From positions 6,272,001-6,336,000 of the forward strand of contig OZ253462.1 of the NCBI GenBank assembly GCA_965261395.1: a DNA stretch of 64,000 nt, written 5' to 3'. Position numbers and translations under genes: made by a program. Of the stretch, positions 6,873 to 62,836 are shown piece by piece. Source of the stretch: Candidatus Latescibacterota bacterium. GTDB taxonomy: Bacteria > Latescibacterota > UBA2968 > UBA8231. The notes below the pieces were generated by a model. The model did not search any database. It worked only from the letters and a program-made list of their open reading frames with translations, and was not told where the DNA came from. Within the stretch, counting starts at the first letter, position 1. Each line of letters starts with the position of its first letter.

Positions 6873-7673
6873 ATGCCCGAGCGGACGCACGACCTAGGAA
6901 AAGTGAAAGAGGAATTTTTCGCGCAGGGGTATTCCCTAGTCGAAGATGCCGTAGAACCCGAGATGGTCGATCGGTTGGAGGCCGCGGCCCGGCGGGTGTG
7001 GGCCAAGGTGCGCGCTGGCGAAGTGGATGTGGCCGGCAACGGCCCGGAGGCCACGGCTATTTTCGGCGTCATTGCCCCGGAATTTGGGGAGCCGGTCTTT
7101 GCCGAGCACTTGGCGTCCCCGGCAATCGAGCGCTATGTCAAGGCTTTTTTGGGGCCGGACTTGCGCATGGGGCACGTGCATCTGTGGTGCGCCGACAAGG
7201 GCTACGACACGGGCTGGCACCGCGACATTGGGACGGGTAATCAAGACGGTGACGCGGAGCGGGAAATGGCGCTTATCACCCAGCCGATGACGGGTTTGCG
7301 GTGGCAATTGGCGCTCGTTGACGATCCCTGTCTATGGCTGGTGCGCGGCAGCCATCTGCGGCCGCGCACGCCCGAGGAACACCACGCCTTAGCTGTGGAT
7401 AGGAAGGTCGATATCACCGGCCAGAAGAACATTTTTTTAAAGAGGGGTCAGGTGCTGTTCTGGAGCGGTTATACGATTCACCGCGGCCGCCAACCAGCGC
7501 ATCTGCCCCAGCGGCTGAGCATGACGGGCGCGCTGATGATCTACCGGCCGGATGAGCCGCAGACGGAGGTGGACGAGCGCTTTCGCTGGAAGCTGGCCGA
7601 CAACGTGCGCGCTGCGCTGCCGCCGAAGGCCCAGCTTTACTACGACCGCTGGCGCGCCCTGCAAAAGGCCTAG
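6873..7673 (+). CDS. phytanoyl-CoA dioxygenase (PhyH) family
   Basis: WHRD, LWLVRGSH, distal HRG; GGAGG RBS before ATG 6873. Confidence 0.85.
   Translation: MPERTHDLGKVKEEFFAQGYSLVEDAVEPEMVDRLEAAARRVWAKVRAGEVDVAGNGPEATAIFGVIAPEFGEPVFAEHLASPAIERYVKAFLGPDLRMGHVHLWCADKGYDTGWHRDIGTGNQDGDAEREMALITQPMTGLRWQLALVDDPCLWLVRGSHLRPRTPEEHHALAVDRKVDITGQKNIFLKRGQVLFWSGYTIHRGRQPAHLPQRLSMTGALMIYRPDEPQTEVDERFRWKLADNVRAALPPKAQLYYDRWRALQKA
7387..7672 (+). repeat. direct repeat copy A1 (3' end of PhyH gene)
   Basis: ~94% identical to 15870-16155 by manual alignment. Confidence 0.95.
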
Positions 7674-7871
7674 ACGCTATCTGAAACGCCGGTGAGCCGT
7701 CCGACGCCGTGTCTTGGTGGTGGGCAATCACATACGGGCGCGGGGATGACGTTAAATTTTTTGACGCAACGGACATTCCCTGACCGCTTCGGGTTTATAT
7801 TTATCCGACGGAGGATTGAGCCATCCCGACACCGACATGGACGCAAATCGAAATTACAGGAGGATGACCCC

Positions 7872-10283
7872 ATGAAAACCCTCATTTTTTGGTTCTCCTT
7901 TCTGTCGTTGCTCAGTCTCATCTACTCGCCGCTAGCCGTCGCCCATGAGTCGCCTTCGTCAGCCGATAGCGTGCATTCCCGCGAGCATCGCCCTGCGGCC
8001 AAGCGGCTGGCGGATCTGAACGTGAGCGAATCCCGCACCGTGCGGCTGATTTACTTTTTGCCCAATGACCGTCCGTTTCGCGTCGAGGTAGTTGATGCAA
8101 TGAAAGCTGTGATTCGCCACGTTCAGACCTTCTATGCCGAGCAGATGCAGGTGCATGGCTACGGCGACGGAACCTTCCGCTTTGAAACTGACGAACAGGG
8201 TGAACCGCTGGTGCATCGCGTGGATGGTCAACACCCTGATAAGCACTATCTCGACGATACGAATGGTACTGTGTTTGAGGAGATTGGACAGGTGTTTGAT
8301 CTCCGTGCGAACATTTACTTCATCGTCGTTGACAATAGTACAGATCTTACTAATAGACAGGCGGCAGGTAACGGAGGCAGGTATGAGAAAAATAGTGGAT
8401 ATGCCTTTTATACAGGCGGATCAATGCTTGCTGCCAGAAAATCTGCCAGCAGATCGCTGTATGCTGGCGAATATTCCTTTTACGTGGCTCTCCATGAACT
8501 TGGCCACGCCTTCGGACTGCATCACGATTTCAGGGATGGTGCGTACATCATGTCGTATGGCCCACCAGGATGGAATCGGTTGTCTGCGTGCCATGCCGAA
8601 TATCTGGCTGTGCATCCCTACTTTAATCCCGATACCCCAATTCAGGAGACATCACCGCCCACTACCGAACTCATTTCGCCACACGCATCCGGCAGGGGAA
8701 CAAGCGCCTCCGTCCAGCTTAAAGTCAGAGATTCTGAAGGGGTTCATCAGGTGCTCCTCACTAATAGCGGCAGCACTAGGAGAGCATGTCGTGGATTGAC
8801 GGGTGAAAAAGATGCCGTCGTTGAATTCTATTATTACGACGTTATTCCACCTGATGGCGTTACGAGTCTTCCCAACCCCGCTGCACATCGGATTGCGGTA
8901 CATGCCGTTGATCTGGGTGGGAATGTGAGGAAGGCGTCTTTTGTTCTTGATGTGTCTAAGTGGCCGCGCCCCCAGCCTCAAATGCTAGAGAAAATCTCCG
9001 GCGATGAGCAGCAGGGACCGGCTGGCGTTCAACTGGACGAGCCGTTCGTGGTTTCGGTGCTGGATCAAAACGGCTCGGCGATTGCCGGGGGGGCTGTCGT
9101 CACCTTTTCGGTCATCGCCGGTGGGGGGACGCTCTCGGTTGAGACCGCCACCGCCGATGCTAGCGGCCAAGCCGCTACTAGGCTGACGCTGGGCAGGGAT
9201 CCGGGACCGAACACCATTGAGGTCACCGTCGCGGGGTTTGAACCGGTGACCTTTACGGCTACCGCCATCGAGCAGGAGATCACCGTCGTTGATCAGGCGA
9301 TGCCCCAGACCTTGACGAAGGTCTCCGGCGATAGCCAAGAAGGCCCGGCCAGCACGCAACTAGCCGCGCCGTTTGTCGTTTCGGTGTTGGATCAAGCTGG
9401 CTCACCCCTTGCCGGGGTGTCCGTCACCTTTTCGGTGACCGCAGGCGGCGGGCTGCTGTCGTCCACCACCGATACCAACCCTTGTACTGTTGAGCCATCT
9501 ACGTCGTCGACCACGGCTACCACCGATGCCAACGGCCAAGCTGCTACTAGGCTGACGCTGGGCAGCGACGCGGGGACGAACACGGTTTCGGCCACGGTTG
9601 CGGGGCTTGAACCGGTGACCTTTACCGCTACCGCCGCCGAGCAAGCAATGCCCCACAGTCTGACGAAGGTCTGTGGCGAGGACCAAGAAGGCACGGCCGA
9701 CATACTACTGGATGAGCCGTTTGTGGTTTTAGTGTCGGATGAAGATGGTGCGGCGATAGCCGGGGTGGTCGTATCGTTTTCGGTGACTGCTGGCGGGGGG
9801 ACGCTCTCGGCGGCCACGGCTACCACCGATGCCAACGGCCAAGCTGCTACTAGGCTGACGCTGGGCAGCGATGCGGGGACCAACACGGTTTCGGCCACGG
9901 TTGAGGGGCTGGAGTCGGGGACCTTCACCGCTACCGGGCAAGAGTCGCCCTTGGTTAGTCTCTTCGACGCTTTTTTGGGGGGTGGCAAGCGGGTGGCTCT
10001 GCCCGACAGCCCGCAGTTGGCGCAAAACGCGCCTAATCCGTTCAACAGCCAGACAGTTCTTGCCTACTTCTTGCACGCGCCTGGTCCGGCGCGCCTAGAA
10101 GTGTTCGCGTTGACGGGTCAACGGGTGGCGGTCCTCCACCAAGGGCCGCAGCAGGCCGGCTACCACCGGCTCCGTTGGAATGGTCGCGACGACGCGGGTC
10201 GCCCCGTGGCCAGCGGCATGTACCTGTATAGGCTAGTGACCGACGAAGTCGTTCTGGCACGCAAGCTCGTGCTGCTGCGGTAG
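7872..10283 (+). CDS. secreted zinc metallopeptidase + Big_1 Ig-like repeats + FlgD-Ig/T9SS-like C-terminal domain
   Basis: Signal peptide, [12 protein letters not shown] plus IMSY Met-turn, three Big_1-like repeats, QNAPNPFN tail; AGGAGG RBS. Confidence 0.85.
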   Translation: MKTLIFWFSFLSLLSLIYSPLAVAHESPSSADSVHSREHRPAAKRLADLNVSESRTVRLIYFLPNDRPFRVEVVDAMKAVIRHVQTFYAEQMQVHGYGDGTFRFETDEQGEPLVHRVDGQHPDKHYLDDTNGTVFEEIGQVFDLRANIYFIVVDNSTDLTNRQAAGNGGRYEKNSGYAFYTGGSMLAARKSASRSLYAGEYSFYVALHELGHAFGLHHDFRDGAYIMSYGPPGWNRLSACHAEYLAVHPYFNPDTPIQETSPPTTELISPHASGRGTSASVQLKVRDSEGVHQVLLTNSGSTRRACRGLTGEKDAVVEFYYYDVIPPDGVTSLPNPAAHRIAVHAVDLGGNVRKASFVLDVSKWPRPQPQMLEKISGDEQQGPAGVQLDEPFVVSVLDQNGSAIAGGAVVTFSVIAGGGTLSVETATADASGQAATRLTLGRDPGPNTIEVTVAGFEPVTFTATAIEQEITVVDQAMPQTLTKVSGDSQEGPASTQLAAPFVVSVLDQAGSPLAGVSVTFSVTAGGGLLSSTTDTNPCTVEPSTSSTTATTDANGQAATRLTLGSDAGTNTVSATVAGLEPVTFTATAAEQAMPHSLTKVCGEDQEGTADILLDEPFVVLVSDEDGAAIAGVVVSFSVTAGGGTLSAATATTDANGQAATRLTLGSDAGTNTVSATVEGLESGTFTATGQESPLVSLFDAFLGGGKRVALPDSPQLAQNAPNPFNSQTVLAYFLHAPGPARLEVFALTGQRVAVLHQGPQQAGYHRLRWNGRDDAGRPVASGMYLYRLVTDEVVLARKLVLLR

Positions 10284-10463
10284 CTTGATAGCTTCTACGG
10301 GGGACCGCGCCCAAAGTCAGCCGAGGAGGGCCTCGATGGAATGGGGTTGCACAGGCTGGGTAAACTTGGGGCACTGCAATGAACGATGACCGAAAAAGTG
10401 TTTCACCTTTGAGAGGGGTTCTATGTTTTCTGCATCGAATGCAATAAAAGGAGTCTATCTCAA

Positions 10464-13400
10464 ATGAAAAAGACCTTGCTGGCCAGCATTGCCTTGTTGG
10501 CCAGCGTCCTGTTTGTGCCGGCCATTCACGCCCAAGACGAGCCACTTACCCGCTTGAATTTGCCCGAAGGTGCGCTCGCCCGCTTGGGCAAAGGCCGCAT
10601 CGGTTCGGGCGACCGGGCGGTGACCCATTCGCCGGACGGTACGCGGCTGGCGGTGGCCGGCGGGATTGGTATCTGGCTCTACGATGCGCACACCGGCGAC
10701 GAAGTCGCCCTGCTTACGGGACATACGGATAGGGTCACTTCGGTGTCGTTTTCGCCGGATGGGACGACCATAGCCAGCGGCAGTGCGGACGAGACAGTAC
10801 GGTTGTGGGAGGTGGCCAGCGGCCAAGAAAAGGCGACTCTCGCAGGGCATACGTCTTCGGTTACTTCGGTGTCGTTTTCGCCGGATGGGACGATCTTGGC
10901 CAGTGGCAGTGCGGACGAGACAGTACGGTTGTGGGAGGTGGCCAGCGGCCACGAAAAGGCGACTCTCGCAGGGCATACGTCTTCGGTCGCTTCGGTGTCG
11001 TTTTCGCCGGATGGGACGACCTTAGCCAGTGGCAGTGCGGACGGCACGGTACGGTTGTGGGAGGTGGCCAGCGGCCACGAAAAGGCCATCCTGAGAGGGC
11101 ATACGGATGATGTCGCTTCGGTATCGTTTTCGCCGGATGGGACGATCTTGGCCAGTGGCAGTAGGGACTGGACGGTACGGTTGTGGGAGGTGGCCAGCGG
11201 CCAAGAAAAGATCACCCTTGCAGGGCATACGTATTGGGTCTATTCGGTATCGTTTTCGCCGGATGGGACGACCTTGGCCAGTGGCGGTGGGGACGAGACG
11301 GTACGGTTGTGGGAGGTGGCCAGCGGCCAAGAAAAAGCTACCCTGAGAGGGCATACGTGGGCTGTCCTTTCGGTGTCGTTTTCACCGAATGGGACGACCT
11401 TAGCCAGTGGTAGTTTGGATGGCACGGTACGGTTGTGGGAGGTGGCCAGCGGCCAAGAAAAGGCGACTCTCGCAGGGCATACATATTGGGTCTATTCGGT
11501 GTCATTTTCACCAGATGGGACTATCTTGGCCAGTGGCAATGGGAACCGGACGGTGCGATTGTGGGAGGTGGCCAGCGGCCAAGAAACAGCCACCCTCGCA
11601 GGGCATACGTCTTCGGTTACTTCGGTGTCGTTTTCACCGGATGGGACTATCTTGGCCAGTGGCGGTGCGGATGGGACGGTGCGATTGTGGGAGGTGGCCA
11701 ACGGCCAAGAAACAGCCGCCCTCGCAGGGCATACGTCTTCGGTTACTTCGGTGTCGTTTTCACCGGATGGGTTCACCTTAGCCAGCGGCGGTGCGGATGG
11801 CACGGTACGGTTGTGGGAGGTGGCCAGCGGCCAAGGAAAGGCCATCCTCGCAGGGCATACGGATGGGGTCTCTTCGGTATTGTTTTCGCCGGATGGAGCT
11901 GCCTTGGCCAGCGGCAGTGCGGACGGCACGATCCTGCTGTGGGAAGTGGCCAGCGGCCACGAAACAGCCACCCTCGCAGGGCATACGGATGGAGTCCTTT
12001 CGGTATCGTTTTCGCCGGATGGGTTCACTTTAGCCAGTGGTAGTGCGGACGGCACGATACGATTGTGGGAGGTGGCCAGCGGCCACGAAACAGCCACCCT
12101 CGAAGGGCATACGTCTTCGGTTACTTCGGTATCGTTTTCGCCGGATGGGTTCACTTTAGCCAGTGGTAGTGCGGATGGGACAGCGCGGTTGTGGGAGGTG
12201 GCCAGCGGCCACGAAACAGCCACCCTCGAAGGGCATACGTCTTGGATCTATTCGGTATCGTTTTCGCCGGATGGGACGACCTTAGCCAGTGGCAGTGCGG
12301 ACGGCACGATCCTGCTGTGGGACATGGAACCCTACATCATTTATACCCGCTTGAATTTGCTCGAAGGTGCGCTCGCCCGCTTGGGCAAAGGCCGCATGGG
12401 TTCGGGCGACCGGGCGGTGACCTATTCGCCGGACGGTACGCATCTGGCGGTGGCCAGCGGGATTGGTATCTGGCTCTACGATGCACACACCGGCGACGAA
12501 GTTTCCCTGCTTACGGGACATACGTGGGCTGATGTCCTTGCGGTATCGTTTTCGCCGGATGGGGCTACCTTGGCCAGTGGCAGCGATGACGAGACGGTAC
12601 GGTTGTGGGAAGTGTCTACCGGCCAAGAAACAGCCACTCTCGAAGGGCATACGGATAGGGTTTATTCGGTATCGTTTTCGCCGGATGGGACGGCCTTAGC
12701 CAGTGGCAGTGCGGATGGCACGGTACGGTTGTGGGAGGTGGCCAGCGGTCAAGAAAAGGCCATCCTGAGAGGGCATACGGATGGGGTTTATTCGGTATCG
12801 TTTTCGCCGGATGGGACGACCTTAGCCAGCGGTAGTAGGGACCGGACGGTACGATTGTGGGAGGTGGCCAGCGGCCAAGAAAAGGCTACCCTCGAAGGGC
12901 ATACGTCTTCGGTCACTTCGGTATCGTTTTCGCCGGATGGGACGACCTTAGCCAGTGGCAGTTGGGACGCCACGGTACGATTGTGGGAGGTGGCCAGCGG
13001 TCAAGAAAAGACTACCCTCGAAGGGCATACGTCTTGGGTTTATTCGGTATTGTTTTCGCCGGATGGGACGACCGTAGCCAGCGGCAGTGAGGACGGCACG
13101 ATACGATTGTGGGAAGTGGCCACCAGTCAAGAAAAAGCCAGCCTCAAAGGGCATACGGATAGGGTTTATTCGGTGTCGTTTTCGCCGGATGGGACGACCG
13201 TAGCCAGTGGTAGTAGGGACGGCACGCTACGGTTGTGGGAGGTGGCCAGCGGCCACGAAAAGGTCAGCCTCAAAGGGCATACGTCTTGGATCTCTGCGGT
13301 ATTGTTTTCGCCGGATGGGGCGATCTTAGCCAGTGGTAGTGCGGACGGCACAGTGCGGTTGTGGGAGGTGGCCAGCCGCCAAGAAAAGGCTACTCTGAGA

Positions 13401-15260: not shown

Positions 15261-15358
15261 AGGCCGGCCGTGCCCGACATAAACACAAACTGCCCTGCAG
15301 GAACCTAAATCCATGAAAACCTCTTTAGCATCATGTATGACAAAGACAAGGAATATCA

Positions 15359-15835
15359 ATGATGGCAATCGTTCTATTATTTGCACTGGCGTCCAGTGCT
15401 TTTGCGGATGAATACACGCCGGTTGACTGGATCCAAGTAACTGAGGATGGAGGAATCGAAGTGAAGCTGGGTTTTTTCAGCCTCGGCACAGGAAATTCGG
15501 GGTGTTTAGAGATCGGAGATATGACCATTAATGACGTTATCTACTCTGTCGGCGCTAGCTGGTGGCAGATGCGCAAAGGAGAGGATTCCGAATGGATCGA
15601 TATTCCAGGAACAGAGCGCACCGGCGCAATCTGTGGCATTGGCATGACTCTGGATATGCCGGGCGAGTACCGACCGGTTGCGGAAGTCACAGTCGATGGC
15701 GTAATGAGGAAATACACGAGTGGGAACACCCTAGTAGTAGCTGGCGATCCCGAGTCAGCGGTCGAGGAGGCAGGAGACGAGTCAGCGGTCGAGGCCGTCA
15801 CTTGGGGATTCCTCAAATCGAGGGCGATGCGCTGA
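15359..15835 (+). CDS. small secreted protein with acidic linker and C-terminal AVEAVTWGFLK motif
   Basis: Signal peptide ASSAFA; homologous to 32520-32821. Confidence 0.75.
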   Translation: MMAIVLLFALASSAFADEYTPVDWIQVTEDGGIEVKLGFFSLGTGNSGCLEIGDMTINDVIYSVGASWWQMRKGEDSEWIDIPGTERTGAICGIGMTLDMPGEYRPVAEVTVDGVMRKYTSGNTLVVAGDPESAVEEAGDESAVEAVTWGFLKSRAMR

Positions 15836-15869
15836 CCTAGGCGACGACTTCGAGCACACTGCAGCAGGA

Positions 15870-16165
15870 CCTTAGCCGTGGATAGGAAGGTCGATATCAC
15901 CGGCCAGAAGAACATTTTTTTAAAGAGGGGTCAGGTGCTGTTTTGGAGCGGTTATACGATTCACCGCGGCCGCCAACCGGCGCACCTGTCCCAGCGGCTG
16001 AGCATGACGGGCGCGCTGATGATCTACCGGCCAGACGAGCCGCAGACAGAGGTGGACGAGCGCTTTCGCTGGAAGCTGGCCGCCAACGTGCGCGCTGCGC
16101 TGCCGCCGAAAGCCCAGCTTTACTACGACCGTTGGCGCGTTTTGCAGAAGACCTATGGACACTAA
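15870..16165 (+). pseudogene. orphan duplicate of PhyH 3' end (direct repeat copy A2)
   Basis: Matches 7387-7672; stop TAG replaced by TAT. Confidence 0.92.
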
Positions 16166-22737: not shown

Positions 22738-22744
22738 AACGGAG

Positions 22745-52321: not shown

Positions 52322-52337
52322 TCCTTTGAGGTTGCTC

Positions 52338-53227: not shown

Positions 53228-54366
53228 TATAGCAATCCTGAATGAGTTGAGAGCATTATTTAATTTTTCTATGTTATCCTGCGTTTGGTATGGCCCCCCT
53301 TTTTTAGGAGCATATCTATGCCTTCGGATACTTCTCTTACGGCGTTTATCGCCAGCAATCCCGATGCACGGGAATTGAAACGGGCGTTAGCGGTTCACAG
53401 GACGCAGTTGGGCTTCAAACAACGGGTGATTCAATCCATTCTCGGCGTACCGTCGAGCTTCATTAGCACGTGGAAGAAACGCTATCAGGCCGAGGGCGTG
53501 GACGGTTTGCGCTTGGCTTATACCGGGTCGCAGCCTTTTTTGTCGGCCGATCAATGTGCACAAATCCACGCGTGGTTAGCCACCCAACCGCCGCCTTCGG
53601 TCGCCGGGTTAGCCGCCTATATCCAAACCCAGTTTGGCGTGGTCTTTCGCTCGTCGCAAAGCTATTACGACCTACTTTCGCAGGCTCGCTATAGCTGGAA
53701 AAAGACGCAAGCCCGTAGGCCGAAAGCTGATCTGCAACAGGCGATGGACCAGCGAGAAGTCATTAAAAAAAACTAGCCGATCATAAAGCCGATCTTGAAG
53801 CCGGCCACGTCAGTGCCTTTTTCGTTGATGAGTCGCACCTGCACGGGGACGAAGCCTGTGGCTATGCTTGGGGACGCCAAGACCAACGGCTTGAGGTTTC
53901 CATTGAAAATGGCCGCCAACGACAAACCTATTATGGAGCCTTGGATGTGGTCAAGGGCACCTTCCTCATGCAAAGCTACCCGAAGGCCAACTCACAGCAT
54001 ACCGTGGACTTTGTACGCTACCTACAACAGCGTCGTCCCGGGCAAAAGTTGTTGATCTTTGGGGACGGCGTTTCCTATTATCACCAACGGGCCATGCGTG
54101 ATTTTCTGCAAGCGCTCCAAGCCGATCGAGCACCCCACGAGTGGAAGATCGACGGTACGCGATTGGCCCCGTATGCACCGCAAGAAAATCCGGTCGAAGA
54201 CCTCTGGTTAAAAGGCAAAACCTTTGTGCGCACCCATGCGTTATGGACCACCTGTTTTAAACAGATTAAAGACCTATTCGTCAAGGGAATTCGACAGAGC
54301 AGATACTTCCATTTCCCCAAGTTGAAACAATATGCAATATCTCTTAAATGATTTAGGATTGCTATA
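53228..54366 (+). mobile_element. IS630-family element; transposase 53318-54351 with -1 frameshift at A8 (53765-53772)
   Basis: Terminal IRs TATAGCAATCCT(G/A)AAT.., TA ends; FVDES, IFGDG, PYAPQENPVE motifs. Confidence 0.92.
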
Positions 54367-54547: not shown

Positions 54548-54617
54548 CTCATAAAACCATTACGCTCAGGCGTGATGTTGGTCATAGCAACCATCTGTTG
54601 ATTGACATGGTGACCTC

Positions 54618-54731
54618 CATCACTTCCAGGCGTCGAACGGGTTCGCCGTGTTCGCCAGCGGCATCCTAACCCTCGCTCCGGCCATATGCGAGGCGTGGGC
54701 CATCATCGCCATTTCTAGATAGAGTCGCACA
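54618..54731 (-). repeat. orphan duplicate of the Gfo/Idh/MocA 3' end
   Basis: RLYLEMAMMAHASHMAGARVRMPLANTANPFDAWK*, ~90% identical to 61746-61859. Confidence 0.92.
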
Positions 54732-56374
54732 CACCTATTCTTATCCATTGATTTTGTTATGTAATGCCTCGAGCGTCTCCGTATCTCTCTGAAATGCTTC
54801 GAGTGTTTCGTCGTTCAGCTTGATGCGGAATTCATACCGCCTCGTAGGAACATTGAGGGGCCGTCGCTCCGAAACATCCCAAGAATCGATGCTCACCGGA
54901 TCATAACCGCTGTTACCCGCCCATTGAACCTCGCGGGATGCTTTCCTTAGCTCATCTAAAGGACGCCAGATCCAGCGAATCTCATAGTCTTGTTCTCCAT
55001 TAGGAAAGAGGATGGCCATGACGTAGTCATCGCTTTTTCCTTCAAAGTCTCGGGCTTTTTCACATTGGAGACCGGACCAGTGAAACATGCCAGGACGGCT
55101 TGCTGTGTGCTTGACCTCAATATGGAATCTACGCCTACCGGACGATATAACGAAGTCGCTCTCTCTGTTTTCGTCGTCCCGAACATGCCGTTCCACTTGA
55201 CTGAATACTCTTTTGAGTTTCTCATAAAGCCAATCTTCCGCAGCCAGCCCCGTTTCGGGGCGCGGTCTTGATGCTCCGTTGCTGGATGTGGGAGTTCTTG
55301 GCGGTCTCATTCCGCCCCCAGCGCCAGTCTCTGGCTGCGGTGGTTGTTGAGTTTCTCGTTGCGGATTTTGAGAATCCGGGGCGACGCCCTGTGACGGCCC
55401 TATACCTAGCTTAGGGCCTTGCGGCAGTGGCAGGTCGTTGTCTGTACCTTGTCCGAGGGGCGCGCCGAGTAGCCAAGCATTTTCTGCCTCTCTGATGTCG
55501 TCTTCAGTCACGCCCTCTTGCCGCAGTCGATCCAGATACCCCTCCTTATCCGACTCACGTAATAGATTTTCAAACAGAGAGGCTTTGTCTTCTGCGTCTG
55601 CGACTCTCGCGGCCAAGCCATGTCCAAGAGCTCTCCACTTATCTTTGTTGAGATTGATCAGAAGCGCACCGTCTTCTCTTCGCCAAGAAAGCACTTGGAC
55701 AGCAGGCACAGGCTTACCGTTGGCCGTCAGTTTAAGCCGCAGTCTGTTCACAGCAATGATGTTCAACTTCTTGGGTAGCGATTTCGTCAGACTTGCGGCG
55801 ACACTCAGACCCCGGCACCTTTCGCTATAGCTTTGAAGAAGCTTTTGACTCTCCGGTTCGGCCGGCTCATCATATTGCGGTTCGGCTGATAGCGTATCGG
55901 AGAGGCGACCCACACCCAGCCGTTCCGGCGCACTGTTGCCCGCGTCAAGACGGACGATGAACAGCTTGTATCCCTTGCGAAGAATATCCTGCCTAACCTC
56001 ATCGAAATGCGACTCGCCGACATAATAGACCTCGCTTGGCGGAGAAAACATCAATGTCTCGCGATCATCTTCCCAAGCCAAGCACGGAATGTCGATATCT
56101 TCCGGAAACTCGTTCCTCCGTTCAAGTTCCAAGTATCCGCGATAGAGAGTACCGGCTTCTTCTCCATCGTTCTCCCATTCAAGTTTCAGGTATCCACGAT
56201 AGAGAGCATCGGCGGCTCTATATAATCCACCGGTTTCTTCTCCACGCTCGGGAACCTTTCGTTCACTCTCTTCCAACTGCTCGGCCAGTTTTGAGAGCTT
56301 CCGCATCCATTCATGCCAGTCTGTCGGATCTTCGGGTAGCTGCTCCCGAACACCTAGACTACGCAGCTTGTACT

Positions 56375-57464
56375 TATTGAGTCCTGCAAATATAAAGGAA
56401 TATTTTACGGTTTAAGTTGTGCATACTTGAAGAAGCCTCGAATCAGGTCGTTATCGTGATGCTGGGCGGTGATCGACATGCAGACGGCATCGGCTAAATC
56501 TTCAATGTGATCTGGAATGAAGTTGGCCAGATCGCCATACTTGGTATGATTCCAGACCTGTTCCGCCGGATTCAATTCGGGTGCATAAGCGGGTAACCAT
56601 TCGATAGTGAGTCGATCCGGATATCTTTTTTGCAAGACCGACACGGCGGCACGATGGACACTCCACCGATCCAAAATGAGCACGACCTTGCGCCGTATCA
56701 TGCCCATCATATGACCAACAAAGGACACCACATCTTGCGTATCAATGTTATGCTCATACCGCCGGAAATACACCCCCAATCGCTGCCGTCGAGGCGGCAG
56801 GGTAACGGCGGCTTGAACCGACAAGCGATCGTGACGATCCCACACCTTATGTATAGGCGTGTGCCCCGACAAAGCCCATGTCCTACGACGGGTGGGTTGC
56901 AGCATGAAGCCGCTCTGATCCATCAAGACGATGGTCGCCCTTTGGTGCCGGGCTTTTTTTTAATCCGTGGCCATTCCACCAAACGCCATTGGCGCACCGC
57001 CGCCTCATCCTGTTCCCGCGCCCGGTGTTGGGGATACTGGCACGAAAAACCCAACCCATGTAGCAGCCGCCCCACATGATCGGGATGATAGGACACCCCA
57101 AACCGTTGGGCAATCACCTGCGCTACCCGCTTACAGGTCCACAGCGCGGTATCAAAGCCAGCCGCTTGGGGCCCCGCCAGCAGAAGCTGCTTCAACTGAT
57201 CTTTGTCTTGGGCACTCAACTGACCGCCTCGCCCCGGATGCGGTTTGGCCTTCAGCCCCGCCTCGCCGCCTTGCGCTCTCATCGTCTTCCAACGAGACAC
57301 CGAGGAGGGGGAGGCTTGGACCAGACGAGCCACCTCGTTGACGCCTTTGCCTGCATCAAGCAAATGAGCCGCCCATGGACGACGATATTCTAGCCGATCG
57401 GCACTACCTTTAGGTCGCATTGAAATGAATATAAAATATTCCTTTAAAAATGCAGAGGTCAATA
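56375..57464 (-). mobile_element. IS630-family element (orfA 57420-56923, orfB to 56405, frameshift at A-run ~56955)
   Basis: ~33-bp IRs TATTGA..CTGCA....TAAAGGAATATTTTA, duplicated TA; DQSGF, LILDR, PAYAPELNPAE. Confidence 0.92.
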
Positions 57465-57928
57465 ATACGCTGAAACCACTCCTCGTTTCCGACGCCGCTT
57501 TTATCAACTTCGGGAAGCAGACCGCGAAGGCCTTCACCCGGCAGGAATGCGTTGCACGGGGCTACCCGTCTGCCGGCATGGAACAGGGCAGGCTCGCAAG
57601 GAAGCCACTCCTCATGGCGGAGCTGACAATCGGCGAAGTTGGCTTTATTGTAATTTTTCTCCTTTTTCCTCCTGTAATAATACGTGCGATAGAAAGTCGC
57701 CCTGTACTTTTTCACAGCATCCGCAAGGGGAAGCATCGTTCTGATGACGCTGGCCGGATCGTTGCCGTCATTGGTATTGTGGATGCATTCGGGAAAAAAC
57801 TCAATTTGCCAATCATATAGCCATTCATAGAATGACTCTTTTTCATAGATCTCCACCAAACAGTGATCCGGCAGACCTACGACGCGCCGGGCTTTCGGCT
57901 CCCAAGATACGCCGGCCCACCGAAGCAA

Positions 57929-59506
57929 GGGTGCATTAGGTGATTGTTACGGTTTTGGTGGTTGTTTTTAGGTTGTCTCGGTACTGCTGAAAGACCCGGT
58001 CAAGCGTTCCATTGTACAAGGCGCAACGCAGGGCAAGAATGGCGTTGCTGTTTTCCTTATACCACCAAGCGCCCGAGCGTTTCAGACGAACATGGCCGAT
58101 GAAGCGATGCGCCGATTCGATCGCACCCGACCCGATCGGGTATCCGCCCTTGCGATGGCTGCCGAAATCGACTTGATGCAATCGCTTTTGCAGGTACGTC
58201 AAGGCCGTGCCGATCGCTTCTTCGGCCTCTTCCGAGACCGCCTGCATGCGCTGCAGACCCCAAACCACGCCGGTGCCCTCACCGCAGAACAGGCGCGCCA
58301 GAGTCGCTTCCAGCCAATGGCTGGCGCGCGCCGCATCGGTGCCGTATTGAGCCTCGGCCACCGCGTGCAGGTAGCGGCTACAATGGTAGTAGTCGAGGAT
58401 CTGACGGGCGCTCGGGAACAGTTCCTCCACCCATTTCCAGATCCACGGGGCTCCGTCCCCGATGGCACACAAGCGCACCTGCTCCTCCGGGATCAGCCCC
58501 GCCTCCTTGACCTGGCGCAAGGCCGAGCCGAAGGCCTGTTCGTCGCCCATCTGGTGCCAGGAGATCAGCTGCTCGATGCGCTCATCGTCTACCAAGTAGA
58601 AGCGAAAGCCCTTGGCTTCGTGGTATTCACCCTGCCAACGCCTTCGCCGAGCCCGGCTCTTCTTGCGCCCCGGACGAGTCCCTTTGGCGGTCTCGGGACG
58701 ACTGGGCACGTCGGCCGCGTCGATGGCCAACACCACGATGGGCCGCCACTTGCGAGCGGCGGCGGCTTGAGCAATGCGATCCTGGATGTCGGCCGCGTCC
58801 GGACACACCTGCAGCACGTCCAACGACCCGGTCTGTTGCAGCACCTCGTGAATCACACAGTCGCTCATCGACGCGTCGGTCAGCTCGTCCAGCAGCTTCG
58901 CGGCGCGCTGGTGGGGCATCTCCAGCGCCAGCTTGACCCCGGCGTTTTGAACGTCCCACTGCTTGCGGTGCCCCGACAGGCCCAGGGCCTCGTCCAGCGG
59001 ATAAAAGCCGTGCTCACAGGAAACGCAGTAGAAATAGGGCCGCTCCAAGGGCACCGGCCCGAGCAGCGTCTCCACCGTGCGCGAGCGCGACGGTCGCGCA
59101 CGCAGGACGCGCTCACACTTCGGGCAGGCCGCCTCTTCTTGCGCCAGGAACTGGCCGTGGCGGCGTTCGATGAAGGCTTCCACCACCGCCGCGGTAAGCC
59201 CGGAGCGCTCTTGCGACACCGCCTCGGTAATCTCCATCAACGTCGGCGGAGTAGATCCGTGCTCGCTCATTTGCGTCTCCACCCGATCCAGCAACTCGTC
59301 CAGGGCTTCATGCGCTCTACTTCGAAAGCGCGCCCACTGCTGCCGCTGCTGAAAGGGCGCCAGAGAGAGAATCGCAGGCATTGCTCCCCTTCTTTCTCAA
59401 TCGAGGGGAGCGTGCCGCGGGGGAGGCGGCAAAAGAATAGAACAAGTTACTGTAAAATATACACATACGTACCGAAATCGTGCCATAACAATCGGCTAAG
59501 GTGCCC
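57929..59506 (-). mobile_element. ISKra4-family element, transposase 57936-59381
   Basis: Imperfect 24-bp IRs (GGG....TTAG..GATTGTTA.GG), 8-bp TSD CGAAGCAA (57921-57928, 59507-59514); GDGAPWIW, LDYYH, IGSGAIES. Confidence 0.92.
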
Positions 59507-61747
59507 CGAAGCAAGGCTTTCCACTGGCCCTTGTCTGTTCCTTTACGGATACGGTTGGGCCATCTTTGAAAGGGACGCACGAGGCCTCGGGCCTTGACGC
59601 TGACGAAGAACCGATCGAATGTCAGAGGCCCGTCCCAGTCTTTTCCGGCGTAGCAGTTGGAGGCAAGCAACCATCCCTTATCGGTTGGAATACGCAGCAT
59701 CCTAGCCGCCTGTGCCCGTCGTTTCTCCTCTTGATTACCGTCCGTGTTCTCGACCCATGGTGCCACGCTCTCGAACTTGCGATTGATCGACCATGATAAG
59801 ACTTGACGCAAAGCCCTCCACCCGTCTGCTTCCCATCTCTCGTCGTCCCATTTTGCGACGAACGGGAGCAAAACATCATGGAGGTATTCCTCTCGTTGCT
59901 TCAAGAGCCGCCCCGAGATCAACTCCCTCCAGATTTCGAGGATCTCGTCCTTGTCCAATTTCTTCGCCCTTGTCTCCCAGAGCTTCAACACCTTCCGCAT
60001 TCTCGGATACAATGAGTCGGCCGGCAGCCAGTCAGGCCAATCCTCGGGACGAGTGAACAATAGCGGGCGGGCGTCGGCGAGTGCCCGCGCCGCACCTGTC
60101 CCCGTCCACCAACAAGGGACCTCTCGCAAGTATTTGATCAGTTCCTCACGGTTCCAAGAAGACACCAAAGAGACCCGCTTCAGTCCACCTCCGGCCAAAA
60201 CCCGCCAACTCGCAAAGCACTCCTTGAGCGAATCGTTGCGGCAGTAGCGGAGCAGCCGGATGTAATCCTCATCTTTGATGTCTTGGGCGTTGAAATCTTT
60301 AAGGATATTCTTCAGATCGTTAAGTCCAGACACAAGGAGGTACGCATCCTGCACCTGTTGGGTTTCGTCCCGTAGAACAGATCCGAGCCTGTCGTTCCAA
60401 AGTTGCACCTCTCTAGGCTTGACCCGGTCGCCACCTATAGTGGGAACGAAAGGTGTCTCGCATAGTGTATCCCTGATTTTTTTTTGGAGCCTCGTCAGAG
60501 ACGAAATCCCATCCGCAGAGGCAATTTTTCCGAATGCTTCCAAAGCGGTTCGCGCCGGAATATCGTTGAGCACGTCCTGAAACAACTCGCTAAACTCTTG
60601 GAGGATATCCGTGTCATATTCACCTTTCCTAACGCGCTTCCGGTTGTGCTCAAGGTCGAGCGAAGCGTGGATCAGGGCACGCGTTCCGGTATCTTCCTCG
60701 GTCGGGAAGAAAACATGGAAAGGAACGTTTGCGCGATGAGGGATGGCGTCGCCTTGTTTCGTCAGCGGAAGACAGATCGCAACCGTCAGTTGCTTGCTAG
60801 TATCAGTCGGAGCGGGACGACATTGGACCCATCTCCGCCACAAGATTGACGAGGAGCCGTTCGAATCGCGGGTGGAGAGCTTTACATTGCCGTTCGACAA
60901 TCCCGGTTCTGATCTCGTTACGTTATGTACCGTCTCGCCTTCTGGGACGCGGATGCGAACGCAAGACAATTCCTGGGCGAGAAGCAGGAACAAGGCGTCG
61001 AGATCGCGCAGCCGGGCCATAGCCGCCCTTCCCGTTTCTTCGTCGCGAAACGGAAGACGCACAACCGTTGCGTAGCCCGCAGCTAGGAGCTCCCGGACTC
61101 TGCTGTCTGGTTTGCATTCGTGAGGGAGGCGGAACGTCAAGGGAGGCGGAACGGCGTGTAATTTTTTTTCTTTGAGGAGCTCTTGGGTCCTTATTGCCGA
61201 GAATAGAAAATGAAAGGGGCCTGAATGAATCCCCGGTTCATCGGTGACCTCAAGCACTGCCTTGAAGCCTAGTCCTTTCGATCCAATGAGAACGTCGCTC
61301 GACCTTCCCTCTCCCATCGCGTCGTCTGCGTTTTGCAAAAGCTCCCAGACGAACCGGCCTCCATAGTCATGAATGGTTTCACGCTCATTGTTGAAGTCGG
61401 AAGTTACCCGATTCGGATCCTTGTAGTGATCCAATTCGTTGCAACGAATAGCCCGAACAAGCTGTTTGTCATCTGCATCGAAGTGATCCGTTACTCCGCC
61501 CAATTGCTTGTCGCTGAGATGGGATGCGCAGACGCTGATCACGCCTTTGCGGGAGAAGGGGCATCCGCCGTTCGCAATGAGAAGGGCGTCTTCATCAAGC
61601 TCAAATAGTATTTCCTTGTCCACCGGGCGATCCTTCACTTTTCTCACCTATCGTGCCACTATGCTGCGTCGCCTGTATCACCTTGTTAGCATCGTTCGAC
61701 GCCTCACCACTAGTAGCGAAAGGAGCGAGCCAGCAGCAGGGTCTTCA

Positions 61748-62836
61748 TCACTTCCACCCGTCGAACGGATTCGCCGTGCTCGCCAGCGGCAGCCCAACCC
61801 GCGCTCCGGCCTTATGCGAGGCGTGGGCCATCATCGCCATTTCCAGATAGAGCCGCGCATTCTCCAGCTCTACCAGCTCCCACTCTGGCTCCTTGCCTTC
61901 GATTATGTCGATCATGGACCGCGCCATGCGGCGGTGGGCGTTGAGCCACTTGTGCTCGTCCGGCGGCGGCGACGAAGGCACGACCTCCCAGCGTGGATCG
62001 CCGATCAGCCCGGGGTTGACCAGCGGGTGGTAGTAAATGTCCGGCAAGTTTACCATCGGCCCGGGCAGCGACAAGGTTCCCTCGGTCCCATGGATGTCGA
62101 TCCGGTAGGGGTTTTCCTTCCCATCGCCCCGGTAGGACTCGAAATCGGCAGCCACTCCGCTTGGGAACTCGTAATACGCCTTGATCCCGTCTCCAGCCAC
62201 CAAACCCATCCCTTCAACGCCTTCCTGTACATCCGACGGCGTCGCGCTGCGCCCATCCTGCGTTAGATGCGCATGACACCACAGCGGCTCTCCAAACGAC
62301 TGCCAGAGAAAGTCAAAGAAATGCGGATACAAGTCCAAAAACAGTTGATCCCCGCCATGCGCGCCGCCCATCCCATAGATTCGGCACAGTCGCGGCTGGC
62401 CGATTTTCCCCGCCTTAATCGCCGGAATCGCCACCCTCTGGACCGGCGGATGCCCCCGCCACGGATGCGCCACCACCACCGTCACTTTGGCCTTATCGCG
62501 CGCTACTATCATCTGGTCCACTTGGGCAACCGAAGCCGCCACTGGCTTTTCGAGGTACACATGCGCCCCCCGCTCCACACAATTGAGTACCAAAGCTAGA
62601 TGATCGCCGATCTCTCGCGACGCCACCACCGCAATATCCGGCTGCTCCTCCTCTAACATCTGCACGTAATCGGCGTATCCCTTGGGTGCTCCGGTCTTAG
62701 CGACAGCAGCTTGGCGTCCCGCCTCGTCGGGGTCGGCCAGCGCCACAATCTCCGCGCCTTCTACTCCAACAAAGGCCATGTCGAGGTAGTGGCCGTAGTG
62801 GCCGCGGCCGGTGTGTCCAATAATGCCAATGCGCAT
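61748..62836 (-). CDS. Gfo/Idh/MocA oxidoreductase
   Basis: MRIGIIGHTGRGHYGH, YLEKP. Confidence 0.9.
   Translation of the reverse strand: MRIGIIGHTGRGHYGHYLDMAFVGVEGAEIVALADPDEAGRQAAVAKTGAPKGYADYVQMLEEEQPDIAVVASREIGDHLALVLNCVERGAHVYLEKPVAASVAQVDQMIVARDKAKVTVVVAHPWRGHPPVQRVAIPAIKAGKIGQPRLCRIYGMGGAHGGDQLFLDLYPHFFDFLWQSFGEPLWCHAHLTQDGRSATPSDVQEGVEGMGLVAGDGIKAYYEFPSGVAADFESYRGDGKENPYRIDIHGTEGTLSLPGPMVNLPDIYYHPLVNPGLIGDPRWEVVPSSPPPDEHKWLNAHRRMARSMIDIIEGKEPEWELVELENARLYLEMAMMAHASHKAGARVGLPLASTANPFDGWK

What the first reader, a model, noticed from the sequence alone, without database searches (positions are those of the whole stretch)
7387..61859. Recurrent integrase-free cargo insertion anchored on gene 3' ends (three independent cases)
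Seen: the same layout occurs three times, namely intact gene, then cargo starting after its stop codon, then an orphan diverged copy of that gene's 3' end. The cases are PhyH (7387-7672 vs 15870-16155; 8.2 kb cargo), D-2-hydroxyacid dehydrogenase (46103-46143 vs 52338-52378; 6.2 kb) and Gfo/Idh/MocA (61746-61859 vs 54618-54731; 7 kb). Targets and cargos are unrelated, repeat lengths differ (286/41/114 bp), homology stops at or within 2 bp of the stop codon, and no cargo encodes a recombinase. Known: integrative elements duplicate gene 3' ends via their own integrase, and homology-facilitated illegitimate recombination uses one homologous anchor. Inference: DNA from a related lineage repeatedly enters using the gene as the anchor, replacing its 3' end and displacing the old one. 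Variable regions would then grow by accretion at convergent gene ends without breaking core genes.
Basis: partly seen in the sequence, partly recalled or inferred. Interest (0 to 1): 0.85.

Follow-up and report, generated by a model that had tools for sequence, protein, structure and literature searches.

The report
Displaced gene ends flank integrase-free insertions
In this uncultured bacterium, defence genes and other cargo lie just after the stop codons of ordinary genes, each followed by a leftover copy of that gene's end, which looks like a footprint of recombination with DNA from related strains rather than of a mobile element.

Summary
The three repeat pairs are real at the stated coordinates (286 bp at 94%, 41 bp at 90%, 117 bp at 90%). 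Same-genus genomes supply an empty site for each one. At two empty sites the convergent stop codons overlap or lie 3 nt apart.

- The PhyH slot holds 25.6 kb, not 8.2 kb. It looks like two alternative cargo versions joined through the orphan.
- Cargo 2 and its orphan are shared with the closest relative, so that event is old.
- Cargo 3 does encode two transposases. They are IS elements that landed inside a single Tiamat-type defence gene, not its vehicle.
- The closest relative has a tyrosine recombinase in the PhyH slot.

Support:
- PhyH copies A and B are distinct alleles from the genus pool.
- The Gfo orphan keeps the ancestral downstream flank.
- Genome-wide I found 13 distinct orphan 3' ends, 12 of them downstream of the parent gene. 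Cargo includes Hachiman, Septu and SoFic systems, and no integrase.
- Independent read contigs support the case-1 junctions.

Best reading (0.55): homology-anchored, integrase-independent insertion. It resembles Rhs/T6SS "C-terminal displacement", but here acts on ordinary genes. I class it as a new variant of a known kind.

The parts
6828..7673 (+). Intact PhyH-family dioxygenase gene (anchor of case 1). Its last 286 bp (7387-7672) are repeat copy A.
   Evidence: Pfam PF05721; alignment; self-BLAST.
7674..15869 (+). Cargo S1: metallopeptidase/Big_1/FlgD_ig protein (7692-10283), WD40 protein with 31 repeat hits (10464-15260), and a 158-aa ORF (15359-15835).
   Evidence: Pfam. Not found above 82% identity in 30 other genus genomes. 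Its right end is paralogous to the right end of S2.
15870..16155 (+). Orphan copy B of the PhyH 3' end. The stop codon is destroyed by a 2-nt insertion. It lies 30 nt from the stop of the convergent sigma-54 activator gene.
   Evidence: Read contigs from two studies carry it.
16186..33268 (.). Cargo S2, the rest of the PhyH|GHL10 slot: sigma-54 activator (16186-19446, -) and six paralogous secreted-protein genes. An orphan FlgD_ig 3' end lies at 19989-20072.
   Evidence: Pfam; self-BLAST. The region is absent in G006, where PhyH's stop abuts window 33268.
33270..34877 (-). GHL10-family gene, the right-hand core flank of the slot. In empty-site and relic-bearing relatives its stop overlaps PhyH's stop in the palindrome CTAG.
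   Evidence: Pfam; synteny; sequences.
45198..46142 (+). Intact D-2-hydroxyacid dehydrogenase gene (anchor of case 2). Repeat copy A is 46103-46143.
   Evidence: Pfam.
46143..52337 (.). Cargo 2: TPR protein, FG-GAP/ASPIC protein, class-V aminotransferase, and a DUF5916/CBM9 protein (minus strand, likely start at 52321).
   Evidence: Pfam. Present in part in G018, G004, G012, G006, G001 and G022; absent in G021. Start codon analysis.
52338..52378 (+). Orphan copy of the D2HDH 3' end, 80 nt from the stop of the YgjP-like gene (52461-53171, -).
   Evidence: Shared with G022 at 96.6% over 58 bp.
53225..54366 (+). 1142-bp IS630-family copy. It is 99.7% identical to, and inverted relative to, G000 6201353-6202494, and forms one boundary of a 122-kb inversion.
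54615..54731 (-). Orphan copy of the Gfo/Idh/MocA 3' end, with the ancestral downstream flank retained.
54741..61647 (-). Cargo 3: one Tiamat-type (TmtA) defence gene of about 4.2 kb coding sequence, split into three pieces by two IS insertions.
   Evidence: PADLOC: 59317-61647 matches TmtA profile positions 108-450 of 1538 (E 1.7e-56) and 54741-56306 matches positions 884-1137 (E 6e-9). Absent from 30 of 30 other genus genomes.
56372..57468 (-). IS630-family element inside TmtA, with terminal inverted repeats and flanking TA.
   Evidence: Pfam DDE_3 plus HTH; inverted repeat I1; about 90% identical to other copies.
57925..59507 (-). ISLre2-type (UPF0236) element inside TmtA. Six other copies in the genome are at least 99.7% identical. 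A direct repeat of about 10 nt flanks it.
   Evidence: Pfam PF06782.
61748..62836 (-). Intact Gfo/Idh/MocA oxidoreductase gene (anchor of case 3). Repeat copy A is 61743-61859.
   Evidence: Pfam.

Best explanation
Each orphan is the resident 3' end of a core gene, pushed downstream when DNA from a related lineage was spliced in. The incoming DNA carried its own copy of that gene end followed by cargo.

Proposed mechanism:
1. The host's general recombination machinery pairs the incoming gene segment with the resident gene. This is the homologous anchor.
2. The far end of the cargo is joined without homology inside the resident gene. This could happen as one-sided (homology-facilitated illegitimate) recombination of linear DNA. 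It could equally be a single crossover with a circularised fragment, which gives the same topology.
3. The anchor genes face a convergent neighbour with stop codons that overlap or lie about 3 nt apart. The only insertions that leave both genes whole are therefore those that bring a replacement gene end. That is why homology stops at the stop codon and why an orphan is left.
4. Repeated events stack cargo in the same slot.

Shown: the layout, the empty sites, the near-zero spacers, the allelic origin of the PhyH copies, the ancestral flank of the Gfo orphan, the lack of integrases in these cargos, and the genome-wide directional bias.

Inferred: the recombination route, the way DNA enters the cell, and the order of events.
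For: 1. Empty sites in same-genus genomes. In G006, PhyH's stop abuts window 33268. In G021, the D2HDH stop and the YgjP stop are 3 nt apart. In 10 of the 10 relatives examined that retain this Gfo gene, the Gfo stop is followed by G000 6.2026-6.2109 Mb sequence with no cargo 3.
2. The PhyH and GHL10 stops overlap in CTAG in G006 and in the relic-bearing relatives.
3. The Gfo orphan, but not the intact gene, keeps about 25-30 nt of the downstream flank shared with G022 and G001.
4. PhyH A/B differences: 11 of 16 polarised sites are third codon positions (12 of 17 when the stop codon is counted). All 6 A-derived changes are synonymous. At 9 of 16 sites both states already segregate among G006, G022 and G021, against a 16% baseline (P = 3e-4).
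5. The D2HDH orphan matches the D2HDH alleles of G018 and G011 (39/41 and 38/40) better than its own genome's copy (37/41).
6. No integrase domain in any cargo ORF tested. The genome has 4 PF00589 hits, all at least 90 kb from any case, 0 PF00239 hits and 0 PF07508 hits.
7. Genome-wide: 16 cleaned 3'-end pairs representing 13 distinct orphans. In 15 of 16 the orphan is downstream of the parent. 11 end within 6 nt of the stop. The shifted control gave a mean of 1.28. The inverted-orientation control gave 4 pairs with 2 distinct orphans.
8. Independent events at the same anchors in relatives. G018 has its own Gfo orphan with different cargo.
9. Read contigs support the junctions. X13 spans 15100-15907 with 0 differences. 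In a second study, X14 carries the orphan (2 differences) and bridges the orphan to the sigma-54 gene.
10. RecA (2 copies), ComEC and DprA are present, which is permissive only.
Against: - No donor genome with PhyH-S1 or Gfo-TmtA adjacency was found in the 30 other genus genomes. The non-homologous joint therefore cannot be checked for microhomology or for a circle junction.
- By my recollection of de Vries & Wackernagel (2002) and Prudhomme et al. (2002), which I did not read here, classical HFIR usually deletes recipient DNA rather than duplicating it.
- Identity along PhyH shows no clear recombination breakpoint.
- The Gfo A/B differences are spread evenly over codon positions (3, 4, 4). 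The orphan has decayed, so this pair says nothing about allele origin.
- G022's occupant of the PhyH slot encodes a tyrosine recombinase 283 bp from PhyH's stop. G000 has a 57%-identical homologue 590 kb away.
- Deletions also leave PhyH 3' relics in G010, G011, G009 and G004 without any cargo.
- ComEC, DprA and RecA also occur in 10-14 of the tool's 14 control genomes, so they do not show competence.
- The S1|orphan joint is bridged only in run X13, which may be the source sample.
Confidence: 0.55

Rival explanations
1. The cargos are decayed or trans-mobilised integrative islands. A tyrosine recombinase integrated elements that carry a replacement gene end (as recalled for e14 and phage 21 at icd in E. 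coli). The integrase gene was later lost, or it acts from elsewhere in the genome.
For: In G022 the same PhyH|GHL10 slot holds a 7-kb island with a 308-aa PF00589 recombinase (52 bits) 283 bp from PhyH's stop. G000 has a 57%-identical homologue at 5684723-5685589, and a fragment at 1452713-1452925 about 1.5 kb from a paralogue of the window's sigma-54 activator. The layout of gene, cargo and displaced 3' end is the classical outcome of integration into a gene end.
Against: No recombinase is present in any of the three cargos or in the nine other cargos examined. The genome has only 4 PF00589 hits, none within 90 kb of a case, and no serine recombinases. Repeat lengths (41, 117 and 286 bp) and sequences are unrelated. 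G022's integrase island has no repeat of 10 bp or more between its ends and no PhyH orphan. The 280-aa neighbour of G000's homologue is not a PhyH paralogue.
Confidence: 0.17
2. The orphans are remnants of local events: a tandem segmental duplication or a second gene copy whose 5' part was later deleted. No DNA was imported.
For: Deletions that leave only a PhyH 3' relic are seen in G010, G011, G009 and G004. G001 has a 98%-identical 230-bp duplicate at this hotspot boundary that looks like a segmental duplication. The Gfo orphan's differences look neutral. Several genome-wide cases lie in paralogue arrays, such as the LRR and TPR genes.
Against: In 15 of 16 pairs the orphan is downstream of the parent, whereas deletion of either tandem copy predicts about half. 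At 9 of 16 PhyH A/B differences both states are pre-existing polymorphisms of the genus, and all A-derived changes are synonymous. The cargos between the copies are unrelated to the anchor genes and absent from relatives.
Confidence: 0.1
3. Assembly artefact: the long-read metagenome assembly joined reads from co-existing strains, which created the partial duplicates.
For: The genome is a metagenome-assembled chromosome, judged from record titles of the closest loci. It has 8% marker 'contamination'. Run depth profiles show several strains or relatives in the same samples.
Against: An independent k-mer contig in X13 spans 15100-15907 with 0 differences, at the same depth (11) as its flanks. 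In a different study, X14 contigs carry the orphan and the orphan|sigma-54 joint. The D2HDH orphan and cargo are present in a separately assembled genome, G022. The same layout occurs in other genomes. All genus members show 2-13% 'contamination', so that figure is a lineage trait.
Confidence: 0.04
4. IS elements or a composite transposon moved cargo 3 and created the Gfo duplication.
For: Cargo 3 contains two transposase genes, and a third IS copy lies 250 bp beyond the orphan.
Against: Both internal IS elements interrupt a single TmtA reading frame and have their own short target duplications: TA for one, about 10 nt for the other. Neither lies at a cargo boundary. The flanking IS copy is explained by the 122-kb inversion. 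As far as I recall, these IS families do not make 117-bp duplications.
Confidence: 0.03

Closest known systems
C-terminal displacement in Rhs/CDI loci (Jackson et al. 2009, PMC2935791, abstract read) and sequential displacement of T6SS effector-immunity modules in Vibrio cholerae (Kirchberger et al. 2017, PMC5361080, passages read)
   Same: An intact gene is followed by laterally acquired DNA and then by displaced, orphaned 3' ends of the same gene. No dedicated integrase is involved. The proposed mechanisms are homologous recombination with circular intermediates (Jackson) or homology-facilitated illegitimate recombination anchored upstream (Kirchberger). Successive events build arrays.
   Different: In those loci the displaced part is a variable toxin tip with its immunity gene, and the anchor is the conserved toxin core. 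Here the anchors are ordinary enzyme genes. The replacing and displaced ends are near-identical alleles (90-94%). The cargo is unrelated to the anchor (defence systems, secreted proteins, metabolic genes). The sites are zero-spacer convergent gene pairs.
Homology-facilitated illegitimate recombination during natural transformation (de Vries & Wackernagel 2002; Prudhomme et al. 2002; Meier & Wackernagel 2003; all cited via PMC5361080, not read here)
   Same: One homologous anchor plus one non-homologous joint inserts foreign DNA using only housekeeping recombination.
   Different: By my recollection it typically deletes recipient DNA next to the anchor. Here the recipient's gene end is retained as a duplicate. 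Transformation has not been shown in this organism.
Integrase-free hotspots of horizontal transfer flanked by recombining core genes (Oliveira et al. 2017, PMC5635113, passages read)
   Same: Variable slots between conserved core genes, many without integrases or other mobility genes. Turnover is attributed to homologous recombination with DNA from relatives.
   Different: That model is a double crossover in both flanks, which replaces the content and leaves no footprint. The orphans here indicate one-sided events that add to the slot.
Integrative elements that carry a replacement gene end, such as e14 or phage 21 in icd (recalled, not checked here)
   Same: The gene stays intact through an element-borne 3' end, and the old 3' end is left as a pseudogene at the far side.
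   Different: Those elements encode their own integrase and have a defined att core. None was found in these cargos.

Membership tests
Integrase-borne integrative island at a gene 3' end | A site-specific recombinase gene inside the element | tested here: not met
   Pfam on all large ORFs of the three cargos found no PF00589, PF00239 or PF07508 domain. Genome-wide there are 4, 0 and 0 hits respectively, none within 90 kb of a case. G022's occupant of the PhyH slot does have one.
Integrase-borne integrative island at a gene 3' end | A short common att core at both ends, the same for all insertions made by one integrase | tested here: inconclusive
   The repeats are 41, 117 and 286 bp at 90-94% identity and have unrelated sequences. 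G022's integrase island has no end repeat of 10 bp or more. A core hidden inside the repeats cannot be excluded.
Integrase-borne integrative island at a gene 3' end | Excision as a circle with restoration of the empty site | not testable with these tools
   Only contigs were available for the runs that hold the locus.
Homology-facilitated illegitimate recombination | One end of the insert lies in sequence homologous to the recipient and derives from a diverged donor allele | tested here: met
   At 9 of 16 PhyH A/B differences both states are pre-existing genus polymorphisms, and all 6 A-derived changes are synonymous. The Gfo orphan keeps the ancestral flank.
Homology-facilitated illegitimate recombination | The other end is joined at a microhomology of a few bases | tested here: inconclusive
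   No donor context was found in 30 genus genomes, so the joint cannot be compared with its parents.
Homology-facilitated illegitimate recombination | DNA uptake and RecA-dependent strand exchange are available | tested here: inconclusive
   ComEC (1), DprA (2) and RecA (2) are present, but the same families occur in 10-14 of the 14 control genomes.
C-terminal displacement (Rhs/CDI/T6SS) | An intact gene followed downstream by displaced orphan 3' ends of the same gene | tested here: met
C-terminal displacement (Rhs/CDI/T6SS) | The displaced part is a polymorphic toxin domain with a cognate immunity gene | tested here: not met
   The anchors are PhyH, 2-Hacid_dh and GFO_IDH_MocA enzymes. The ends are 90-94% identical alleles.
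Composite transposon / IS-mediated insertion | Transposase and terminal inverted repeats at the cargo boundaries | tested here: not met
   The IS elements lie inside the TmtA frame with their own target duplications. Cargos 1 and 2 contain no IS.
Tiamat defence system (cargo 3) | A single large TmtA protein | tested here: met
   The two ORF pieces match PADLOC TmtA models at successive profile positions, with E 1.7e-56 and 6e-9. The gene is interrupted by two IS elements, and its function was not tested.

The most novel reading that the evidence does not exclude
Orphan gene ends may be a general, readable footprint of an integrase-independent 'end-replacement' route. By this route defence systems (here Tiamat, Hachiman, Septu, SoFic) and other cargo would move between related genomes into zero-spacer slots between core genes, and stack there. 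If so, a simple scan for displaced gene ends could measure how much hotspot and defence-island turnover across bacteria is due to one-sided recombination rather than to mobile elements.
Probability: 0.4. Interest if true: 0.65.

Novelty: new variant of a known kind. Interest (0 to 1): 0.5.

Why it matters
How defence systems and other accessory genes reach integrase-free hotspots is still explained mostly by inference, as double crossover in the flanks. That mechanism leaves no trace.

Here the displaced gene ends record individual insertion events. They show which allele was resident and which came in. They also show that slots between convergent genes with overlapping stop codons can only be filled by DNA that brings a replacement gene end.

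Four of the cargos flanked this way are single, named anti-phage systems. If the footprint is common in other lineages, it gives a direct and countable signal of one-sided recombination in genome evolution. It also extends 'C-terminal displacement' from toxin loci to ordinary genes.

Tried and rejected
- The repeat finder on the whole window was swamped by the 126-bp WD40 repeats, so I used BLAST and a k-mer scan instead.
- The sigma-54 activator flank could not serve as a synteny marker. It is a multi-copy family and is not next to PhyH in any relative.
- The depth spike at 15770-15836 suggested a multi-copy element at the cargo end. It has only 3 copies, all in this window, and is the conserved end of a small-ORF family.
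- Segment-wise identity along PhyH showed no breakpoint.
- Window 54367-54614, beyond the Gfo orphan, has no match in the relatives' loci.
- I found no donor for S1 or for TmtA in the genus.
- One genome-wide candidate (2211700/2208986) was a tandem sigma-54 activator paralogue, not an orphan, and was dropped.
- The scan mis-assigned the D2HDH pair, because its orphan lies inside a spurious long ORF on the other strand. It is therefore not among the 13 orphans.
- Runs with small word shares, several labelled sponge or marine metagenome, were not used to name a habitat. X2, which was laid, only showed low-depth contigs of relatives.
- The S1|orphan joint was not seen bridged in the listed X14 pieces.
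- Supplementary files of the papers were not consulted. Oliveira et al.'s hotspot tables might show whether orphan gene ends were noticed there.
- Searches for prior description were only, so I make no claim that the pattern is absent from print.

Full report
**Observation**

The three repeat pairs are in the sequence as described. Window self-BLASTN gives:
- 7387-7672 vs 15870-16155: 286 bp, 94.4%, E 5e-125
- 54615-54731 vs 61743-61859: 117 bp, 89.7%, E 1e-38
- 46103-46143 vs 52338-52378: 41 bp, 90.2%, E 2.5e-8

One copy of each pair is the 3' end of an intact gene:
- PhyH-family dioxygenase, 6828-7673 (+)
- D-2-hydroxyacid dehydrogenase, 45198-46142 (+)
- Gfo/Idh/MocA oxidoreductase, 61748-62836 (-)

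The other copy has no frame extending upstream. Homology ends 0-5 nt past the stop codon.

**What the organism and its relatives show**

The window is positions 6272001-6336000 of a single 6.55-Mb contig with 59.3% G+C. Titles of the closest PhyH loci in the named collection read 'MAG: Candidatus Latescibacterota bacterium'. The tool holds 31 genomes of the genus, including this one, about 88-95% identical in conserved genes.

Mapping fetched loci of eleven relatives onto the window shows that all three anchors border hypervariable slots and gives an empty site for each.

*Case 1*
- In G006, PhyH's stop (7673) directly abuts window 33268, the end of the convergent GHL10-family gene. The slot in this genome is therefore 7674-33268 (25.6 kb), not 8.2 kb.
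- G022 has an unrelated 7-kb occupant in the same slot.
- G010, G011, G009 and G004 have lost PhyH except for a 3' relic of about 30-90 bp that adjoins 33270.

*Case 2*
- In G021, the D2HDH stop and the YgjP stop are 3 nt apart.
- G022 has cargo 2 without the TPR gene, and the same orphan (96.6% over 58 bp).
- G018, G004, G012, G006 and G001 have at least the TPR and FG-GAP genes.
- G011 has a different 3.8-kb ABC-transporter cargo.
- Case 2 is therefore old.

*Case 3*
- In the ten relatives examined that retain this Gfo gene, its stop is followed within 20-2900 bp by sequence that lies at 6.2026-6.2109 Mb in this genome.
- The cargo-3 gene is in none of the 30 other genus genomes.

In G006 and in the relic-bearing relatives, the PhyH and GHL10 stop codons overlap in the palindrome CTAG. 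These slots therefore have essentially no spacer.

**A rearrangement that explains the odd neighbourhood of case 3**

Relatives have the order A, reverse(S), C. This genome has A, x, S, y, C.
- S is G000 6202603-6325226.
- x (6201353-6202494) and the start of y (window 53225-54366) are 99.7%-identical inverted copies of a 1142-bp IS630-family element.

This is an IS-bounded inversion of 122 kb. It brought the Gfo locus next to the D2HDH/YgjP locus.

**What the cargos are**

- S1 (7674-15869): a metallopeptidase/Big_1/FlgD_ig protein, a WD40 protein with 31 repeat hits, and a 158-aa ORF.
- The rest of the slot, S2: a sigma-54 activator and six paralogous secreted-protein genes.
- S1's right end (15562-15858) is paralogous to S2's right end (32545-32842). 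The two look like alternative versions of one slot, joined through the orphan.
- Cargo 2: TPR, FG-GAP/ASPIC, aminotransferase and DUF5916/CBM9 genes. The orphan lies 17 nt upstream of the likely ATG of the last of these.
- Cargo 3: a single Tiamat-type defence gene. The two large ORFs match PADLOC TmtA models at profile positions 108-450 and 884-1137 (E 1.7e-56 and 6e-9).

- An IS630-family element (56372-57468), flanked by TA.
- An ISLre2-type element (57925-59507), with six other near-identical copies and a flanking repeat of about 10 nt.

**Which copy is old, and where did the new one come from?**

*Gfo.* The orphan, and not the intact gene, is followed by the roughly 25-30 nt that follow Gfo's stop in G022 and G001. 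The orphan is therefore the resident end left in place. It has decayed: its differences fall 3, 4 and 4 on the three codon positions, and it is 85-92% identical to relatives against 89-93% for the intact end.

*PhyH.* Copies A and B are 94% identical.
- Polarised with G006, G022 and G021, 6 changes are A-derived (all synonymous) and 10 are B-derived (6 synonymous, 4 not).
- At 9 of the 16 differing sites both states already exist among the three relatives. Only 16% of sites are polymorphic among them (binomial P = 3e-4).
- For third positions the figure is 7 of 11 against 0.28 (P = 0.016, an upper bound).
- A and B are therefore different alleles from the genus pool, not a local duplicate.
- Identity along the gene shows no clear breakpoint.

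*D2HDH.* The 41-bp orphan matches the D2HDH ends of G018 and G011 (39/41 and 38/40) better than its own genome's copy (37/41). These numbers are small.

**Is it a genome-wide pattern?**

I ran a k-mer scan for direct repeats of 30-600 bp spaced 1-60 kb apart. It found 1667 pairs.
- 42 of them had one copy inside an ORF of at least 600 nt and the other not in a long ORF.
- 12 of those 42 ended within 6 nt of the parent's stop.
- Shifting the boundaries by 30-300 nt gave a mean of 1.28 and a maximum of 6 in 200 trials.
- The fragments are bimodal. 17 lie within 37 nt of the stop, about 15 lie at the 5' end (10 of these upstream of the parent), and few are internal.

After a frame test on the orphans, 16 of the 17 3' pairs remained. 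One was a tandem paralogue.
- They represent 13 distinct orphans, because four LRR paralogues share one orphan.
- In 15 of 16 pairs the orphan is downstream of the parent.
- 11 of 16 end within 6 nt of the stop.
- The D2HDH pair was mis-assigned by the scan and is not counted.
- With the D2HDH orphan added, four of the 14 orphans lie in this window.
- In inverted orientation there were 125 pairs and only 4 parent/orphan pairs with 2 distinct orphans, one tied to a multi-copy IS-like gene.

Cargo of the other cases:
- Hachiman (HamA + HamB)
- Septu (PtuA + PtuB)
- SoFic
- an LRR array
- PD40/WD40 secreted proteins
- metabolic genes
- an IS605 TnpB in one case and an IS630 in another
- no integrase in any

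Relatives have their own cases. G018 has a Gfo orphan 1.9 kb downstream of Gfo, with an AAA-ATPase/PD-(D/E)XK gene as cargo. G011 has an 81-bp duplicate flanking 11.3 kb at the divergent promoter region near window 35.8 kb.

**Recombinases**

- The genome has 4 PF00589 hits (one weak), none within 90 kb of any case.
- It has no PF00239 or PF07508 hit, and 13 DDE_3 hits.
- Against the integrase-free reading, G022's 7-kb occupant of the PhyH slot encodes a 308-aa tyrosine recombinase 283 bp from PhyH's stop.
- This genome has a 57%-identical homologue at 5.685 Mb, and a fragment near a sigma-54 activator paralogue.
- That G022 island has no repeat of 10 bp or more between its ends and no PhyH orphan. 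The neighbour of the G000 homologue is not a PhyH paralogue.
- This recombinase therefore does not account for the 286-bp orphan, though it may have opened the slot in some lineage.

**Assembly check**

- Six of the 24 listed runs hold half or more of the sampled words of 15300-16400.
- In X13 (all words held, possibly the source sample) a contig with 0 differences spans 15100-15907 across the S1|orphan joint, at the depth of its flanks. Other contigs cover the orphan and the orphan|sigma-54 joint.
- In X14, from another study, contigs cover 15100-15817 (0 differences), 15878-16110 (2 differences, so this is the orphan and not copy A) and 16084-16331 (0 differences).
- The D2HDH orphan is also in the separately assembled G022.
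- A chimeric assembly is therefore unlikely.

**Mechanism**

The best-supported reading is homology-anchored, integrase-independent insertion.
1. DNA from a related lineage carries the anchor's 3' part followed by cargo.
2. It pairs with the resident gene.
3. The distal cargo end is joined without homology inside the resident gene. This could be one-sided recombination of linear DNA or a single crossover with a circularised fragment.
4. With overlapping or near-overlapping convergent stops, only insertions that bring a replacement end keep both genes whole. This explains the boundary at the stop codon and the orphan.

RecA (two copies), ComEC and DprA are present, but these are common in the tool's control genomes too.

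The recombination step itself, the entry route and the order of events are inferred. No donor context was found, so the non-homologous joint could not be examined.

**Comparison with what is known**

- The layout matches 'C-terminal displacement' of Rhs genes, for which homologous recombination with circular intermediates was proposed (PMC2935791, abstract read).
- It also matches the sequential displacement of T6SS effector-immunity modules in Vibrio cholerae, for which HFIR was proposed (PMC5361080, passages read).
- Integrase-free hotspots with recombining flanks are documented (PMC5635113, passages read). That model is a double crossover, which leaves no footprint.
- This case differs in three ways. 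The anchors are ordinary enzyme genes with near-identical replacing alleles. The cargo is unrelated to the anchor and often a single defence system. The sites are zero-spacer convergent pairs.
- It fails the membership tests for an integrase-borne island (no recombinase in the cargo) and for polymorphic-toxin displacement (no toxin tip).
- It works like the latter.

I rate it a new variant of a known kind, with interest 0.5.

Noticed in passing
window 53225-54366 and G000 6201353-6202494: Two 99.7%-identical inverted copies of a 1142-bp IS630-family element bound a 122-kb segment. This segment is inverted in this genome relative to G018, G021, G022, G011 and others.
   Followed up: yes
window 54741-61647: A Tiamat-type (TmtA) defence gene is split into three pieces by an IS630-family element and an ISLre2-type element. 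The latter has six other copies in the genome at 99.7% identity or more, so it has probably been active recently.
   Followed up: yes
window 10464-15260: A 1598-aa ORF is made almost entirely of WD40 repeats (31 Pfam repeat hits). At the DNA level these are 126-bp units 80-90% identical to one another, an unusually homogeneous repeat array.
   Followed up: no
window 19989-20072: An orphan 3' end of a FlgD_ig-tailed secreted-protein gene (82-92% identical to the ends of the genes at 10200-10279, 25798-25882 and 32130-32167) lies between the sigma-54 activator and the next gene. It is a fourth displaced gene end in this window.
   Followed up: partly
window 20080-32821: Paralogous gene modules are reshuffled: 20111-22248 resembles 26059-28145, 22800-23448 resembles 28468-29114, and 9300-10279 resembles 24901-25877 and 31183-32169. 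A family of secreted proteins appears to be diversifying by cassette exchange.
   Followed up: no
genome-wide (G000 coordinates listed): About 15 orphan fragments of gene 5' ends also exist, 10 of them upstream of the parent gene. The displaced-end footprint is therefore two-sided, not specific to 3' ends.
   Followed up: partly
L011 16548-17474 (G022); G000 5684705-5685784 and 1452713-1452925: A small tyrosine recombinase lies next to PhyH's stop in G022's version of the slot. G000 has a 57%-identical homologue and a fragment, and the fragment lies about 1.5 kb from a paralogue of the window's sigma-54 activator.
   Followed up: partly
relatives G010, G011, G009, G004 (L012, L017, L018, L019), equivalent to window 6837-7673: PhyH is reduced to a 3' relic of about 30-90 bp, with a shared left breakpoint near window 6837-6845. 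The relic keeps the CTAG that also supplies the stop codon of the convergent GHL10 gene, which may be why it persists.
   Followed up: partly
L017 4464-15969 (G011), equivalent to window 35799-35878: An 11.3-kb insert is flanked by an 81-bp direct duplicate (92.6%) of the divergent promoter region between the deacetylase and enolase-like genes. Its cargo includes a 1620-aa ORF with no Pfam match.
   Followed up: partly
G000 61827-62603 and 1783324-1784094: There are two full-length recA genes (PF00154, 442 and 438 bits).
   Followed up: no
L011 4189-4257 and L012 10191-10259 (G022, G010), equivalent to window 36990-37058: A 69-bp piece from near the 3' end of the enolase-like gene reappears between the equivalents of window 40892 and 42209 in two relatives. 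This is another displaced gene fragment in the same region.
   Followed up: no
L034 about 5242-5454 (G022): A G+C-rich insert of about 212 bp lies between the D2HDH orphan's spacer and YgjP in G022 only. It may be a small repeat element.
   Followed up: no
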